Shown here one piece after another: positions 4,069 through 40,460 of a DNA stretch of 51,584 nt. The stretch lies in the NCBI GenBank assembly GCA_000993115.1, contig LBVN01000018.1, positions 1 through 51,584 of the forward strand. The letters are read 5' to 3'. Numbering within the stretch: the first letter of the stretch is position 1; each line of letters begins with the position of its first letter. Below the pieces are notes generated by a model. That model saw only the letters and a program-made list of their open reading frames with translations, was not told the DNA's origin and made no database searches. Origin of the DNA: Candidatus Woesebacteria bacterium GW2011_GWB1_38_8b. Its GTDB lineage: Bacteria; Patescibacteriota; Microgenomatia; UBA8517. The translations under genes were made by a program, and so were the position numbers.

Positions 4069-5738
4069 ATTTTCGATTCTAAAACTTTATAAATTACGTC
4101 CCCGTTTGGGTATTTAATATCTTTTATCAAATTGTAATCGTTTGGGTTATACGAAGTAATCACAACCGGCGTTCCTACAACCAAAGTTTTCGTTTTTAGT
4201 GGGATTGGCCAACTAAAAAAAGAAAAGGCGATGTTGTCAAGATTATCAACCAAACCAACGTCGGGTCCTAAGTAATTAGTAAGTTTTGCCTGGTCTTGAT
4301 ATTTTTTGGGATCATACTTTTCGTAAAAAAGAAAATAAATATATGGTTGCGCATAAGATTGTTGAATTATTACCTGCGAATAATTGTTTCTGATAGGCGA
4401 AACAGTTTGAACAATTTGTTTCATTCCATATTCCCAATATTTTGCATTATGAGTCGGTACATGAACAAGATATGAGTCTAAATAATACAAAAATGAGGCT
4501 GAGAAAATCGCTATAACCACAAACATCAATGGTATTTTAAATATAGGATGTTTGATTGTATTTACAAATTCAATTAAGTAAACTATACCAAAAGCAGAAA
4601 TTATAACAAATGGCACAAGCATGTTGTATGATCGAACTGCCTGCACAGCATCACGCGACATCGCAGCAGGGAGTGGTGCAAGTAACAACCAAAGCAATAT
4701 AAATTTCCCAATATTTTTATAATTTGTTCTGATTAGACCCATAACGCCCAACGGTAACAAAAGTAAATCAAATAATAATAATGTTCCATGATTAGGTGGA
4801 GTGTGACGCGGATTTGCCCAATCGCCTTCGAAGAATAAAAACCTTCCGGAGAGATGATTAAACCATCGTCCCATTACTCCACGAGTAAAATTAAGAGTTT
4901 CAGAATGAAATAAATAATAACTTAATGTACCGTATTTTTCACTTCCTTCATCAAGAAAGTTCTGCAGATAGTCGCGTGGTCTTGGATATGAGAAAACACT
5001 AAACACTTCAAGTCTACCTGCAGCACCAGTAAAAATACTAAATATTATCGGAGTTGAAATTAATAAGCCAAGAATTAGTGACTTAACAACATCAATTTTA
5101 TCCGTTTTTATAATCTCGATAATCTCTTTGTAAAAAGCAACGCAAAGACAAAGTACAACAATTGCTGTTGATAATTTTGCCCCCTGGTACGTTAATAGTG
5201 TCGCTGCAAAAGCAATCACAGAAATTTTCAGATATTTAATTTGTGTGAGCGACTGCAGAAAATAATATATTCCGAGAAGTGTCAGAGTTAAGGCAACATT
5301 TACTTCCCAAGCCCCTCTTGAAAATTGTATATGCCAAGGTGATATTGCAAGTAAAAAAGCCGACCAAATCCCTAACTCTTTTTTATTTGTCAACTTATAT
5401 AAAATTAAATATAGCAAAAATACACTAAATACTCCCGAAAGGGCAGAAGGTAGTCGAACTGACCATTCGTTAAGCCCAAAAACTGCGACAAAGGGAGCGG
5501 TTAAATAAACGTAAAATCCGGGTTTATAATCACCAAACGATTTAAAAATTACGGGAAGGAATTTTCCGTACTCGTCTCTACCTGTTTTTAAAATCGAATA
5601 CGCGTTATATCCGAGCGCCGCTTCATCGGGAGTTAGTCCTGGGGGGATTTTGTTTAAATTCCAAATTCTCAAAAACGCTGACAAAACAATTATCAAAAGC
5701 AGTATTATATTGATTTTTGATTTCATTTTATTAAACAT
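4065..5738 (-). CDS. PMT/ArnT-like GT-C membrane glycosyltransferase
   Basis: FLRIW..PPGLTPDEAALGYNAYSILKTGRDEYG, SVRLPSA, SPWHIQFSRGAWE motifs; many TM segments; start at MFNKMK just after the upstream stop. Confidence 0.88.
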   Translation of the reverse strand: MFNKMKSKINIILLLIIVLSAFLRIWNLNKIPPGLTPDEAALGYNAYSILKTGRDEYGKFLPVIFKSFGDYKPGFYVYLTAPFVAVFGLNEWSVRLPSALSGVFSVFLLYLILYKLTNKKELGIWSAFLLAISPWHIQFSRGAWEVNVALTLTLLGIYYFLQSLTQIKYLKISVIAFAATLLTYQGAKLSTAIVVLCLCVAFYKEIIEIIKTDKIDVVKSLILGLLISTPIIFSIFTGAAGRLEVFSVFSYPRPRDYLQNFLDEGSEKYGTLSYYLFHSETLNFTRGVMGRWFNHLSGRFLFFEGDWANPRHTPPNHGTLLLFDLLLLPLGVMGLIRTNYKNIGKFILLWLLLAPLPAAMSRDAVQAVRSYNMLVPFVIISAFGIVYLIEFVNTIKHPIFKIPLMFVVIAIFSASFLYYLDSYLVHVPTHNAKYWEYGMKQIVQTVSPIRNNYSQVIIQQSYAQPYIYFLFYEKYDPKKYQDQAKLTNYLGPDVGLVDNLDNIAFSFFSWPIPLKTKTLVVGTPVVITSYNPNDYNLIKDIKYPNGDVIYKVLESKI

Positions 5739-37884: not shown

Positions 37885-38103
37885 ATGGCGCAATCTGGAG
37901 TTAGTACTACTATATCAAGACGTTGGAGAAATAAAGAGTCATATACGGAATTTACCGGAAGCAAGTGTGGCAATTGTGGCGACAGAAGAATTCCAGCAAG
38001 AGATGTGTGTCCGAATTGCGGAAACGACAAAATAATCAGGGACAGAGTTCTAGAAAGAGAATCTAGGTTTGCTACTCAACCTCCTGTGCAAAGTGGTAGT
38101 TAA
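37885..38103 (+). CDS. Stand-alone zinc-ribbon protein (DUF35 N-terminal-like)
   Basis: RRWR...GSKCGNCG...PARDVCPNCG (two CxxC); no OB-fold domain follows. Confidence 0.75.
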   Translation: MAQSGVSTTISRRWRNKESYTEFTGSKCGNCGDRRIPARDVCPNCGNDKIIRDRVLERESRFATQPPVQSGS

Positions 38104-38944
38104 TTTCGGATTTTACCTGAAGCGGATTAAATGCTACATTTTTTCGCTTTAACTCCAAATACTTTTCGTAACCGGTTAATGCCTCGTAAACACCTGCTCT
38201 AAATTCTTTTTTGTCTTTTACCAAACCGAACTTTTCCAAATCCAGAAATTCATAATCCTGGAGTTTATAGCTTTGGAAATTATCTAACTTCGACAATTTT
38301 TGGGGCAATTTAATCTGAAATACTTCAACCCGAACATCTGCAATGTCCAAATACATAAATGGTTTTGGCCGTGTTGGAATTAATGAAAGAGGTAAATTTC
38401 TGTCAATCGCAAGCTCAGTAAATACTTCCTGCTGTAAAATCCTTAAAATCCCATCTTCGCGCTTTTCATTAATTTTTGAAAAACCCATAGGAATAGAAAT
38501 TGAAGAAAATGGTTTTCCGTAATAAGACCTTGGTGTTGAAACATCACGGCCTGTTAATACCATTTTCTGGCTATTAAAAGGCGTAATAATCAATCCCGTC
38601 CCAAGCCTCCTTGTAACCCCTTCCTTGATGTAAGAAAGCACACGGTAAAGAGTAACCGCAGAAGTTATAAAACTGGGTGGCATTTTTTTATAGAGTTTAT
38701 CCAAAGGGATGTCCTCGTGAACCATCTTGGCCAAAAAATTAACAACCTCACTTAATTTACTGTTTGGTCCGGCAGCTTTTATAATTCCCCACTTATCCAA
38801 AATTCTTTGGTATTGGGCGTAAGATATAGGAATGTCGAGATGATGATATCTGAAAACTTCATCTACCGATCCAAGCTTAAGGTATTCGCGAACAAGAAAT
38901 TTATTAAATTCAATCTCATTGTTTACAGGAAATTTTGCTGTCAT
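38072..38944 (-). CDS. Hypothetical protein with a helical N-terminus and a degenerate Nudix box
   Basis: 290-aa ORF; G154-x5-E160-x7-R168-I-L-Q-Q-E173 resembles GX5EX7REUXEE. Confidence 0.6.
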   Translation of the reverse strand: MTAKFPVNNEIEFNKFLVREYLKLGSVDEVFRYHHLDIPISYAQYQRILDKWGIIKAAGPNSKLSEVVNFLAKMVHEDIPLDKLYKKMPPSFITSAVTLYRVLSYIKEGVTRRLGTGLIITPFNSQKMVLTGRDVSTPRSYYGKPFSSISIPMGFSKINEKREDGILRILQQEVFTELAIDRNLPLSLIPTRPKPFMYLDIADVRVEVFQIKLPQKLSKLDNFQSYKLQDYEFLDLEKFGLVKDKKEFRAGVYEALTGYEKYLELKRKNVAFNPLQVKSEINYHFAQEVE

Positions 38945-38974
38945 ATTGTATTATATTATTAATCATTCCCTTTT

Positions 38975-39000
38975 GTCATTCTGAGCAAAGCGAAGAATCT
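38975..39000 (+). repeat. Left REP-like hairpin repeat
   Basis: GTC-ATTCT-GAGCAAAGCGA-AGAAT-CT; stem ATTCT/AGAAT. Confidence 0.85.
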
Positions 39001-39003
39001 ATT

Positions 39004-39288
39004 GTGTATTACGTGTACATACTAACAAACAAGTACAATAATGTCCTATACACGGGTGTTACTAACAATATAGTTCGAAGGGTATATGAACATAAGAAGA
39101 AATACATTAAAGGGTTTACGAGCAAATATAATGTTAATAAATTAATATATTTTGAAATATTTAGCTCCAGTATCGAAGCAATCAGTCGCGAAAAACAGAT
39201 CAAAGGTTGGACAAGAATAAGAAAAATTAACCTAATTTTAAAAAATAATCCCAACTTTGAAGATCTGTATAGTGATTTAATCAAATAA
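39004..39288 (+). CDS. GIY-YIG nuclease family protein (YhbQ-like, single domain)
   Basis: YYVYILTN...LYTGVTNN..RR..EH, FTSKY, AISREKQIK motifs; GTG start inferred at 39004. Confidence 0.92.
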   Translation: MYYVYILTNKYNNVLYTGVTNNIVRRVYEHKKKYIKGFTSKYNVNKLIYFEIFSSSIEAISREKQIKGWTRIRKINLILKNNPNFEDLYSDLIK

Positions 39289-39290
39289 CT

Positions 39291-39316
39291 AGATCCTTCG
39301 TTATACTCAGGATGAC
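39291..39316 (-). repeat. Right REP-like hairpin repeat (inverted)
   Basis: AG-ATCCT-TCGTTATACTC-AGGAT-GAC; stem ATCCT/AGGAT. Confidence 0.85.
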
Positions 39317-39320
39317 TATG

Positions 39321-40460
39321 TCACTTTTTGCTCCAGGGAAGTTTCCAGGTCTTCCAGATTACCGCGTTATACATGAAATAGTTATACGGAAGTACTAATA
39401 ACAAAATAATAATGGGCAGAAGCAGTTGTCTTTTGTCCGCACCCAGGAAATAAACACCTATTGTTCCGAAAACCGCCTGAATTGCGAGGGCTCCGAGTGA
39501 CGTTCCGTTAAACTGCAGGAATTTTGAAAGTAATTTTCCGACTCCTGTTATTTTCTCCGACTTAAAAGTCCAGAGATTATTTAAAATAAAATTAGAAATT
39601 ATCGCCATTTCTGTCGCCGCCGCCCAGATTCCCCATTCGGGAAATGCAGTCCGGCCAAAAAGCTCCAGTCCTAGCGCATTAACGACGTAACCAATAAAGC
39701 CTACAGTACCAAATTTTATAAATCTGGCTTTATCTTTTATACCCAAATAAGTTGCCAACTTGAGTGATGCCAATGTTTCCGCTTGGTTAAATTTAGACTT
39801 GTCAGTAATTCTGGGACGAAATTCTAAAGGGACTTCAACGGTTTTCTTGGAATTTTTAATACTTTGATAAATTAGATCAATTTTGTACGCAAACCGCGTT
39901 GGCTCTTTTAGGTTATCTAAATCAATTTTGTCTAAAACACCTTTGACTTTTGTAAGTCTAAAACCCGTTGTTAAATCATGAATTCCCGGTTTAAGAAGTA
40001 CTATTCTTATATAAAGATTTCCAAAATAACTTACAGCTTTTCTGAAAAGCGCCCACTCTTTCGGAATTGAGCCACCTTTTACATAACGCGACCCGATAAC
40101 ATATTCTGCGCCAGCTAAATATGCATCCACCATCGGCTTTACAAATTCAGGCGGATGTTGACCGTCAGCATCCATTTCCATCACGGCATCAGCTTCCAAT
40201 TTATCAACGGCATATTTAAATCCGGAGATATAAGCATTTCCCAATCCTTTGCCTGTTTGTTGGACAATATGAAGGTTTTTTCTTTCCTTCATTTCTTCTT
40301 CGATTATTTCGGTCATACCGTCCGTGGATTTGTTGTCGGCAACAAGAAGATGCATGTCTGCATCTATTTTTGGAAATACTTCGTCAAACAAAGTATTGAC
40401 CATCTTTTTAATATTTTCCGCCTCATTCCAAGCGGCCATAACAATCACTACTTTATCCAT
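39321..40460 (-). CDS. DPM1-like polyprenol-phosphate glycosyltransferase fused to a C-terminal GtrA domain
   Basis: WNEAEN, DNKSTDG, GLGNAY, EMDADGQH, IGSRY, DLTTGFR; C-terminal RFIKFGTVG...VN...NFILNNLWTF. Confidence 0.92.
   Translation of the reverse strand: MDKVVIVMAAWNEAENIKKMVNTLFDEVFPKIDADMHLLVADNKSTDGMTEIIEEEMKERKNLHIVQQTGKGLGNAYISGFKYAVDKLEADAVMEMDADGQHPPEFVKPMVDAYLAGAEYVIGSRYVKGGSIPKEWALFRKAVSYFGNLYIRIVLLKPGIHDLTTGFRLTKVKGVLDKIDLDNLKEPTRFAYKIDLIYQSIKNSKKTVEVPLEFRPRITDKSKFNQAETLASLKLATYLGIKDKARFIKFGTVGFIGYVVNALGLELFGRTAFPEWGIWAAATEMAIISNFILNNLWTFKSEKITGVGKLLSKFLQFNGTSLGALAIQAVFGTIGVYFLGADKRQLLLPIIILLLVLPYNYFMYNAVIWKTWKLPWSKK

What the first reader, a model, noticed from the sequence alone, without database searches (positions are those of the whole stretch)
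38975..39316. 342-bp cassette: GIY-YIG nuclease between inverted, covarying hairpins
Seen: the repeats start 3 nt before the inferred GTG and 2 nt after the stop, are 21/26 identical as inverted repeats, and keep their internal stems through compensatory change (ATTCT/AGAAT versus ATCCT/AGGAT), which points to selection on structure. There is no transposase and no obvious target-site duplication. Known: single-domain YhbQ-like GIY-YIG proteins are largely uncharacterised. Inference: a minimal selfish or mobile unit in which the nuclease recognises its own hairpins.
Basis: partly seen in the sequence, partly recalled or inferred. Interest (0 to 1): 0.8.

Follow-up and report, generated by a model that had tools for sequence, protein, structure and literature searches.

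The report
Ssn nuclease gene with flanking hairpins
The 342-bp cassette is real and was inserted between two otherwise adjacent genes, but it belongs to a family described in 2025 (Ssn single-strand DNA nucleases flanked by their own target hairpins), so it is a new member of a known kind, and whether such cassettes move themselves is still open.

Summary
Window 38975-39000 (+) and 39291-39316 (-) are 21/26 inverted repeats around a 94-aa GIY-YIG ORF (39004-39288). Four of the five differences form two compensated pairs.

It is not YhbQ-like. The protein groups with Neisseria SsnA (46% identity, E 9e-32; clade support 97/96) and keeps the residues matching SsnA Y6, Y17 and E64. The repeats share the frame of the Neisseria NTS: GTC, then a palindrome, then C. 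Chenal et al. 2025 (PMC11893778) showed that Ssn enzymes bind these hairpins in single-stranded DNA only and cut just 5' of them. They also described the hairpin-gene-hairpin layout as IS-like.

- In 80 homologue loci from many phyla, 74 have such a hairpin beside the gene and 44 have one on both sides, usually in this orientation.
- In nine related genomes the two neighbouring genes are 0-45 nt apart with no cassette, so this is an insertion.
- It is identical in eight population contigs, and its hairpin type occurs nowhere else in this 0.9-Mb genome.

New here:
- clean empty sites;
- a hairpin subtype with a GA/GA internal loop that the published search pattern misses;
- a genome in which this hairpin type occurs only at the gene's own flanks.

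Self-mobilisation by the nuclease remains unproven.

The parts
38975..39000 (+). Left Ssn-related hairpin motif (SRM), head GTCAT pointing outward: GTC-ATTCT-GA-GC-AAA-GC-GA-AGAAT-C(T).
   Evidence: It has the same GTC...palindrome...C frame as the Neisseria NTS.
39004..39288 (+). ssn-like gene: a 94-aa single-domain GIY-YIG nuclease with a GTG start and TAA stop. Catalytic-type residues are Y5, Y16, R26, H30 and E63.
   Evidence: Pfam PF01541 at 1.3e-18. 46% identity to gonococcal SsnA, E 9e-32. Same clade as SsnA, support 97/96. Invariant columns.
39291..39316 (-). Right SRM, read on the minus strand, head GTCAT pointing outward: GTC-ATCCT-GA-GT-ATA-AC-GA-AGGAT-C(T).
   Evidence: A downstream copy on the minus strand is the usual arrangement in homologues (51 of 67).
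38945..38974 (.). 30-nt A/T-rich spacer between the cassette and the ATG of the 290-aa gene. Together with the outward end of the left SRM it makes ATGACA-18 nt-TATAAT on the minus strand (38979 to 38950), 5 nt before the ATG. This is a possible hybrid promoter, by inference only.
   Evidence: 11 of 12 consensus match. Whether the spacer came with the insert cannot be told.
39317..39320 (.). 4-nt spacer (TATG) between the right SRM and the stop codon of the GT2 gene.
38072..38944 (-). Flanking host gene: a 290-aa protein with no Pfam family, conserved in 10 of 40 relatives. It is the downstream partner of the GT2 gene.
39321..40460 (-). Flanking host gene: a glycosyltransferase family 2 + GtrA fusion. 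In relatives its stop lies 0-45 nt from, or overlaps, the start of the 290-aa gene.

Best explanation
The cassette is a member of the Ssn/SRM system. It is a 94-aa single-domain GIY-YIG nuclease of the Ssn clade (CDD cd10448 in the literature), bracketed by two copies of its cognate hairpin motif in outward-facing, inverted orientation.

By homology with the four tested Ssn enzymes, the protein should bind each motif only when the DNA is single-stranded and folded. It should read the GTC before the palindrome and the C after it, and nick a few nucleotides 5' of GTCAT. That places one nick just outside the left end on the top strand and one just outside the right end on the bottom strand.

The unit entered this lineage as one piece, between a glycosyltransferase gene and a 290-aa gene that are otherwise adjacent or overlapping. 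It behaves as a horizontally spread, selfish module: close relatives at 55-67% identity occur in many phyla, the gene tree does not follow the organism tree, and occurrence among relatives is patchy and non-syntenic.

Shown here: the anatomy, family membership, covariation, the gene-hairpin association and the insertion. Inferred: the ssDNA binding and nick positions for this protein, and any role of the nicks in spreading the unit.
For: Anatomy and non-chance:
-.
- GIY-YIG domain.

Membership:
- tblastn hit to the single ssnA-like gene of N. gonorrhoeae, E 1e-16 in 7.3 Gb.
- That gene is 94 aa with Y6, Y17 and E64, as in the paper, and is embedded in canonical NTS repeats.
- Pairwise comparison is gapless: 46% identity, 73% positives, E 9e-32.
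- A clade with 97/96 support holds the window protein, SsnA and all 26 sampled homologues. It excludes eight paralogues of the same genome and BH0048.

Hairpin association:
- 74 of 80 homologue loci have at least one GTCWY-stem-C hairpin within about 140 nt, and 44 of 80 have one on both sides.
- The nearest upstream copy is '+' in 47 of 54 loci and the nearest downstream copy is '-' in 51 of 67.
- With anchor-only detection the density is 0.39 per kb near the gene against 0.0076 per kb far from it.
- Covariation holds in 5 of 5 free pairs, with 0 of 500 shuffles reaching it.

Insertion:
- In nine relatives of the same family, the GT2 stop and the 290-aa gene start are 0-45 nt apart or overlapping, with no GIY-YIG. 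Here the gap is 376 nt.
- The ten closest Ssn-like genes in relatives have neither neighbour within 1.5 kb.

Biochemistry of homologues and the published NTS-ssnA-NTS architecture: PMC11893778.
Against: - The published degenerate SRM pattern does not match either copy, so the hairpins are a different subtype.
- Each hairpin is weak as naked DNA. Over the whole single strand the two ends prefer to pair with each other.
- There is no sign of current activity. The cassette is 100% identical and present in all eight population contigs shown, out of 24 read. Multiple copies within related genomes are highly divergent.
- There is no target-site duplication.
- CDD assignment and enzymatic activity could not be tested.
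- The empty-site relatives are distant (42-57% identity for the 290-aa protein), so the exact insert boundaries are unknown.
Confidence: 0.75

Rival explanations
1. Autonomous mini-transposon. The 94-aa nuclease is itself the mobilising enzyme, and the two hairpins are the transposon ends. Cuts at both outer borders release or copy the 342-bp unit, which then integrates elsewhere.
For: - The whole unit, bounded by the hairpins, is the insert.
- The outward-facing inverted orientation is strongly preferred across phyla.
- Unit length is tight, 331-520 bp with a median of 378.
- Frameshifted and gene-less forms exist (L030; C8:46017-46075).
- The authors of PMC11893778 raise the IS analogy themselves.
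Against: - No strand-transfer or ligation activity is known for GIY-YIG enzymes; this rests on established knowledge of the superfamily.
- The predicted cuts are on opposite strands, unlike IS200/IS605.
- There is no target-site duplication or conserved target beyond a pyrimidine at position -1.
- There are no near-identical copies within any genome examined.
- There is no population polymorphism.
Confidence: 0.25
2. Host-serving single-strand DNA restriction, as proposed for Neisseria. The nuclease cuts incoming single-stranded DNA (from transformation, conjugation or ssDNA phages) that carries the motif, and the flanking copies are incidental or regulatory.
For: - In N. meningitidis, SsnA lowers transformation by NTS-bearing DNA about five-fold.
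- The same hairpin subtype is widespread in many phyla, so foreign DNA carrying it is plausible.
- The cassette is fixed and intact in the population.
Against: - This genome has no expansion of the motif: 42 loose matches against a mean of 48.9 in shuffles, and only the two flanking copies of this subtype.
- The gene is absent from most close relatives and lies at an insertion site.
- There is no match to defence-system profiles.
Confidence: 0.15
3. The hairpins are only expression signals for the small gene or its neighbours (terminator, insulator, RBS occlusion, promoter donor), with no nuclease-hairpin interaction.
For: - The left hairpin ends 3 nt before the start codon and the right one begins 2 nt after the stop.
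- The outward end of the left hairpin contributes a -35-like ATGACA to an 11 of 12 promoter match aimed at the 290-aa gene.
Against: - No terminator-like site was found.
- The hairpins are too weak to act as intrinsic terminators.
- The conserved unpaired GTC and C flanks are the positions that control cutting and binding in the tested enzyme.
- The hairpins also occur dispersed away from any gene in other genomes.
Confidence: 0.05

Closest known systems
Ssn nucleases (SsnA of Neisseria meningitidis; CDD cd10448) with NTS/SRM hairpin repeats, Chenal et al., Nat Commun 2025 (PMC11893778)
   Same: - Both are 94-aa single-domain GIY-YIG proteins.
- 46% identity to the gonococcal orthologue, and the same clade.
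- Catalytic residues sit at matching positions.
- The gene is flanked on both sides by hairpins with the GTC-palindrome-C frame.
- The hairpin-gene-hairpin layout is the one described as IS-like.
   Different: - The hairpin stem is short and A/T-rich, with a GA/GA internal loop and a 2-bp inner stem. It folds at -1.9 kcal/mol against -8.9 kcal/mol for NTS, and the published SRM search pattern misses it.
- This hairpin type is not expanded in this genome; it occurs only at the gene's own flanks.
- The host is an ultra-small, low-GC genome (0.9 Mb, groundwater).
- The two copies are strictly inverted, whereas orientations around gonococcal ssnA are mixed.
IS200/IS605 and REP/RAYT systems (HUH Y1 enzymes acting on single-stranded DNA hairpins)
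   Same: - A small element whose ends are imperfect hairpins recognised as single-stranded DNA.
- No target-site duplication.
- An association between one enzyme gene and its flanking or dispersed palindromes.
   Different: - The enzyme is GIY-YIG, not HUH.
- The two hairpins lie on opposite strands rather than the same strand.
- No covalent-intermediate chemistry is known for GIY-YIG.
Free-standing GIY-YIG homing endonucleases (I-TevI, SegA-E)
   Same: - A GIY-YIG catalytic core with the same Y, Y, R, H and E residues.
- Selfish spread and patchy distribution.
   Different: - There is no DNA-binding domain or linker.
- Tested relatives have no double-strand DNA activity.
- It is not in an intron or phage context.
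- It is bracketed by its own recognition motifs.
UPF0213 / YhbQ-type GIY-YIG proteins (BH0048, PDB 1zg2)
   Same: Size and single GIY-YIG domain.
   Different: - The match is weak (E 8e-4 against the PDB).
- BH0048 falls outside the Ssn clade.
- I know of no hairpin association for that group; this was not tested here.

Membership tests
Ssn nuclease family (cd10448) with SRM hairpins | Single-domain GIY-YIG protein of about 94 aa | tested here: met
   94 aa; PF01541 covers residues 1-76; no other domain.
Ssn nuclease family (cd10448) with SRM hairpins | Homology to Neisseria SsnA at E < 1e-10 (the criterion used in PMC11893778) | tested here: met
   Tested against the N. gonorrhoeae orthologue (L120:1489-1773), not N. 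meningitidis itself. tblastn gave 1e-16 and pairwise BLASTP gave 9e-32 at 46% identity.
Ssn nuclease family (cd10448) with SRM hairpins | Falls in one clade with SsnA, apart from other GIY-YIG groups | tested here: met
   Clade support is 97/96 and it excludes eight own-genome paralogues and BH0048. The tree is small and its bootstrap had not fully converged.
Ssn nuclease family (cd10448) with SRM hairpins | Residues equivalent to SsnA Y6, Y17 and E64, which are essential for cutting | tested here: met
   Y5, Y16 and E63 align without gaps and are invariant in 16 homologues.
Ssn nuclease family (cd10448) with SRM hairpins | Gene flanked by oriented hairpin repeats with GTC before and C after the palindrome | tested here: met
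   Both flanks carry the motif. The same holds in 74 of 80 homologue loci. Covariation.
Ssn nuclease family (cd10448) with SRM hairpins | Match to the published degenerate SRM pattern HGTCWYN(0-2)YYVSBRHN(0-5)WNVSBRGN(0-2)RNCYNB | tested here: not met
   No match in the cassette or anywhere in the genome, while the pattern does match the NTS consensus. The pattern is a search aid, not a definition, but the hairpin is a distinct subtype.
Ssn nuclease family (cd10448) with SRM hairpins | CDD assignment to cd10448 | not testable with these tools
   No CDD library was available. NCBIfam has no model that hits the protein.
Ssn nuclease family (cd10448) with SRM hairpins | Site-specific cleavage of single-stranded DNA only, 5' of the motif | not testable with these tools
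   This needs biochemistry.
IS200/IS605-type single-strand transposons | HUH/Y1 transposase (TnpA), with both end hairpins on the same strand | tested here: not met
   The only ORF is GIY-YIG, and the hairpins are on opposite strands.
Classical IS/MITE | Terminal inverted repeats plus a target-site duplication and a DDE-type transposase, in cis or in trans | tested here: not met
   Inverted repeats are present, but there is no duplication here or in 35 other units, and there is no transposase ORF in the unit.
GIY-YIG homing endonucleases | Nuclease domain joined to a separate DNA-binding domain, in an intron, intein or phage intergenic context | tested here: not met
   94 aa with a single domain. 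No PHROG match. The site is an operon junction.
UPF0213 / YhbQ | Groups with YhbQ/BH0048-type sequences | tested here: not met
   BH0048 lies outside the clade and the PDB match is only E 8e-4. E. coli YhbQ itself was not compared.

The most novel reading that the evidence does not exclude
The hairpin-ssn-hairpin unit (342 bp here, 331-520 bp elsewhere) is an autonomous mobile element whose only protein, a 94-aa GIY-YIG single-strand nuclease, drives its own movement by nicking outside each outward-facing hairpin on opposite strands. That would be a transposition or homing mechanism outside the recognised transposase classes, and among the smallest self-contained mobile DNAs.
Probability: 0.25. 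Interest if true: 0.85.

Novelty: new member of a known kind. Interest (0 to 1): 0.38.

Why it matters
Ssn enzymes are the only known site-specific nucleases that cut single-stranded DNA exclusively, and each comes with its own recognition hairpin. This locus adds three things:

- An enzyme-site pair whose hairpin (short A/T stem, tandem GA/GA loop, 2-bp inner stem) lies outside the published search pattern, yet is shared by many phyla.
- A natural minimal case, in which this hairpin type occurs in the genome only at the gene's own flanks.
- Clean empty sites showing that the gene and both hairpins arrived together.

This makes the open question raised by the 2025 paper directly testable with a 342-bp construct: are these IS-like units mobile, and does the nuclease move them? 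If they are not mobile, the value is limited to one more specificity for single-strand DNA tools.

Tried and rejected
- Rfam on 38900-39400 at E up to 10 gave only a chance snoRNA hit.
- RNA folds of the flanks were not better than shuffles on the + strand, so an RNA-element reading was dropped.
- NCBIfam, PADLOC and PHROGs gave no hit for the nuclease or the 290-aa protein.
- The PDB by sequence gave only a weak UPF0213 hit.
- The published SRM pattern gave no hit in the whole genome.
- The supplement of PMC11893778 is not held.
- Population contigs showed no polymorphism.
- I looked for near-identical second copies to define the element ends:
  - L055 and L060 are two 95%-identical versions of one locus, not independent insertions.
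  - L090 and L099 (the second same-MAG pair) share no similarity.
  - Copies within G032, G035 and G018 share no nucleotide similarity beyond a 49-nt flank piece.
- A search for a target-site duplication found none. One apparent 9-bp repeat in L107 is explained by a further hairpin downstream.
- Chance as an explanation of the inverted repeat was rejected.
- A literature search for later work on SsnA found only the 2025 paper.

Full report
**The observation**

- The left arm, 38975-39000, reads GTCATTCTGAGCAAAGCGAAGAATCT.
- The right arm, 39291-39316, reads GTCATCCTGAGTATAACGAAGGATCT on the minus strand. The two are 21/26 identical as inverted repeats.
- The left arm ends 3 nt before a GTG at 39004. 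The right arm begins 2 nt after the TAA at 39286-39288.
- A degenerate pattern of the motif, with up to three mismatches, hits only these two places in the window; 100 dinucleotide shuffles gave none. With up to four mismatches it hits only these two places in the whole 904-kb, 37.6% GC assembly.

Both copies have the same architecture: GTC, a 5-bp stem, GA, a 2-bp stem, a 3-nt loop, the 2-bp stem, GA, the 5-bp stem, C. Of the five differences, four form two compensated pairs: T-A to C-G in the outer stem and C-G to T-A in the inner stem. The fifth is in the loop. The differences therefore preserve each local hairpin and not the pairing between the two ends.

The ORF between the repeats encodes 94 aa and matches Pfam GIY-YIG at 1.3e-18. 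Its translation starts M-Y-Y-V-Y-I-L, like many homologues.

**What it is**

A literature search found Chenal et al. 2025 (PMC11893778). They describe the Ssn family.
- Ssn proteins are single-domain GIY-YIG proteins (SsnA of N. meningitidis is 94 aa; CDD cd10448).
- They bind a hairpin repeat only as single-stranded DNA and cut a few nucleotides upstream of it. In Neisseria the repeat is NTS, CGTCATTCCCGCGMAVGCGGGAATCYRG; in general it is called an SRM.
- The three nucleotides before the palindrome mainly govern cutting. The C just after it is the most important base for binding. The reverse strand, duplex DNA and RNA are not cut.
- By their degenerate pattern, 71% of homologues have an SRM nearby and 42% have one on both sides.
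- Their Discussion calls the NTS-ssnA-NTS layout 'identical to' that of insertion sequences.

The window's repeats keep exactly that frame (GTC, palindrome starting AT and ending AT, then C), but with a different stem.

**Membership test**

PLSDB happens to hold two N. gonorrhoeae chromosomes labelled as plasmids.
- The window protein hits one place in each at E 1e-16.
- That place encodes a 94-aa protein with Y6, Y17 and E64, the residues mutated in the paper. It sits among nine canonical NTS copies within 3.3 kb.
- Pairwise, the two proteins are 46% identical and 73% similar over 90 residues, without gaps, at E 9e-32. Y5, Y16 and E63 of the window protein align with Y6, Y17 and E64.
- In a maximum-likelihood tree, the window protein, gonococcal SsnA and 26 sampled homologues form a clade with 97/96 support. 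The clade excludes eight other small GIY-YIG ORFs of the same genome and the UPF0213 protein BH0048.

The protein is therefore Ssn-type, not YhbQ-like. Two items fall short. The published degenerate SRM pattern does not match these hairpins, and CDD could not be run.

**Association with hairpins in homologues**

A scan of one genome per species returned 589 confirmed relatives. The best 80 are 55-67% identical and come from Patescibacteria, Cyanobacteriota, Bacillota, Bacteroidota, Omnitrophota, Elusimicrobiota, Pseudomonadota, Chloroflexota and others.

- A detector asked for GTC[AT][CT], an outer stem of at least 5 bp, then C. It found at least one hairpin within about 140 nt of the gene in 74 of 80 loci and on both sides in 44 of 80. 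The background more than 300 nt away was 0.34 per kb.
- The nearest upstream copy is on the gene's strand in 47 of 54 loci. The nearest downstream copy is on the opposite strand in 51 of 67. The window's '+/-' pair is the commonest arrangement, in 35 of the 47 loci that have both.
- A detector that fixes only the unpaired anchors leaves all stem positions free. It found 24 copies of the 25-nt subtype near the genes and 3 far away, which is 0.39 against 0.0076 per kb.
- On the 19 distinct sequences, all five free pairs change on both sides and 97% of cells pair. None of 500 shuffles and no slid register come close.

Some copies elsewhere are almost the same as the window's. One example is GTCATCCTGAGCAAAGCGAAGGATC in a Syntrophomonas MAG.

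**Insertion**

- The 290-aa gene to the left has orthologues in 10 of 40 related genomes.
- In nine of them the GT2-GtrA gene lies directly upstream. Its stop is 0-45 nt from the start of the 290-aa gene, sometimes overlapping it as ATGA, and there is no GIY-YIG sequence.
- In the window the two genes are 376 nt apart, and the cassette lies between them on the opposite strand.
- None of those nine genomes has a close Ssn homologue. Close homologues occur in other relatives (46-61% identity), at places with neither neighbour gene within 1.5 kb. One of them is frameshifted.

The relatives are distant, so I cannot say whether the 30-nt and 4-nt spacers came with the insert.

**No sign of current movement**

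- Contigs from several groundwater metagenomes that encode the identical 290-aa protein all carry the cassette. The 376-nt interval is 100% identical in the eight shown, out of 24 read.
- The loose detector finds 42 hairpins in the genome against a mean of 48.9 in shuffles, so there is no expansion.
- Copies within other genomes are highly divergent.
- Thirty-six '+/-' units, including this one, show no target-site duplication, only a pyrimidine at position -1.

**Mechanism**

By homology, the enzyme should bind each motif when the DNA is single-stranded and nick 5' of GTCAT. With outward-facing heads, one nick falls just left of the unit on the top strand and one just right of it on the bottom strand. 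This differs from IS200/IS605, where both cuts are on one strand, so a copy of that mechanism is unlikely.

Each hairpin alone is weak as DNA (-1.9 kcal/mol, no better than shuffles), against -8.9 kcal/mol for a gonococcal NTS. The whole 362-nt strand prefers a panhandle that pairs the two ends (-33.5 kcal/mol, z -2.5). Since covariation supports the local hairpins, they are probably stabilised by the protein or by the tandem G-A pairs. That last step is inference.

The outward end of the left hairpin also forms ATGACA-18 nt-TATAAT on the minus strand, 5 nt before the ATG of the 290-aa gene (11 of 12). This could restore expression of a gene cut off from its upstream partner. It is a consensus match only.

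**Verdict**

However, the family, the enzyme-hairpin relation and the IS-like layout were published in 2025. What is added here is:
- empty-site evidence that the gene and both hairpins arrived as one unit;
- a pan-phylum hairpin subtype missed by the published pattern;
- a genome in which this hairpin type occurs only at the gene's own flanks.

Earlier notes of this scan point to the same family in other Patescibacteria. I treat them as leads, not support.

Noticed in passing
own genome, outside the window: G000:C17:4818-5036, C16:18782-19000, C6:22205-22408, C26:5438-5641, C15:9046-9258, C21:1286-1450 (loci L001, L003, L004, L006, L007): At least five small non-Ssn GIY-YIG ORFs lie 3-70 nt downstream of tRNA genes on the same strand (Gln, Phe/Gly, Ala, Ser, Asn). 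At C15 the tRNA-Asn 3' end (CCTACCCGAGGAGC) is repeated after the ORF. At C21 a stop-ridden copy lies between two copies of a tRNA 5' half. This looks like a second, tRNA-targeting GIY-YIG element family.
   Followed up: partly
own genome G000:C8:46017-46075: An intergenic, gene-less pair of SRM-like hairpins of another subtype: GTCATGCTGAATTTCTTCAGCATC, then 7 nt, then an inverted partner whose head is ATCAT. It may be a miniature or remnant Ssn unit.
   Followed up: partly
own genome G000:C7:5320-5416 and 5603-5699; C12:4006-4142; C23:2037-2108: A repeat of about 100-136 nt, with ends ATGACATCCTCC...GGAGGATGACAT, occurs at least four times. One copy is in frame inside the 3' part of uvrC and another is just after its stop codon.
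   Followed up: partly
window 38950-38979 (minus strand): The outward end of the left hairpin plus the spacer gives ATGACA-18 nt-TATAAT (11 of 12), ending 5 nt before the ATG of the 290-aa gene. This is a possible element-donated -35 and a leaderless transcript. In 45 of 72 unit ends elsewhere the base before GTCAT is T, which gives the same ATGACA.
   Followed up: partly
window 38965-39326: As one single strand, the cassette folds into a panhandle that pairs its two ends (z -2.5). The local hairpins are no more stable than shuffled sequence.
   Followed up: yes
L120 (NZ_CP119140.1, 2.17 Mb) in the plasmid collection: Two complete N. gonorrhoeae chromosomes are filed as plasmids in PLSDB. This was useful here, but it is a database error.
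   Followed up: no
L055 1017-1453 and L060 1805-1893: Tandem units of about 51 nt lie next to the ssn gene in a Syntrophomonadaceae MAG. The two contigs are 95%-identical versions of one locus.
   Followed up: no
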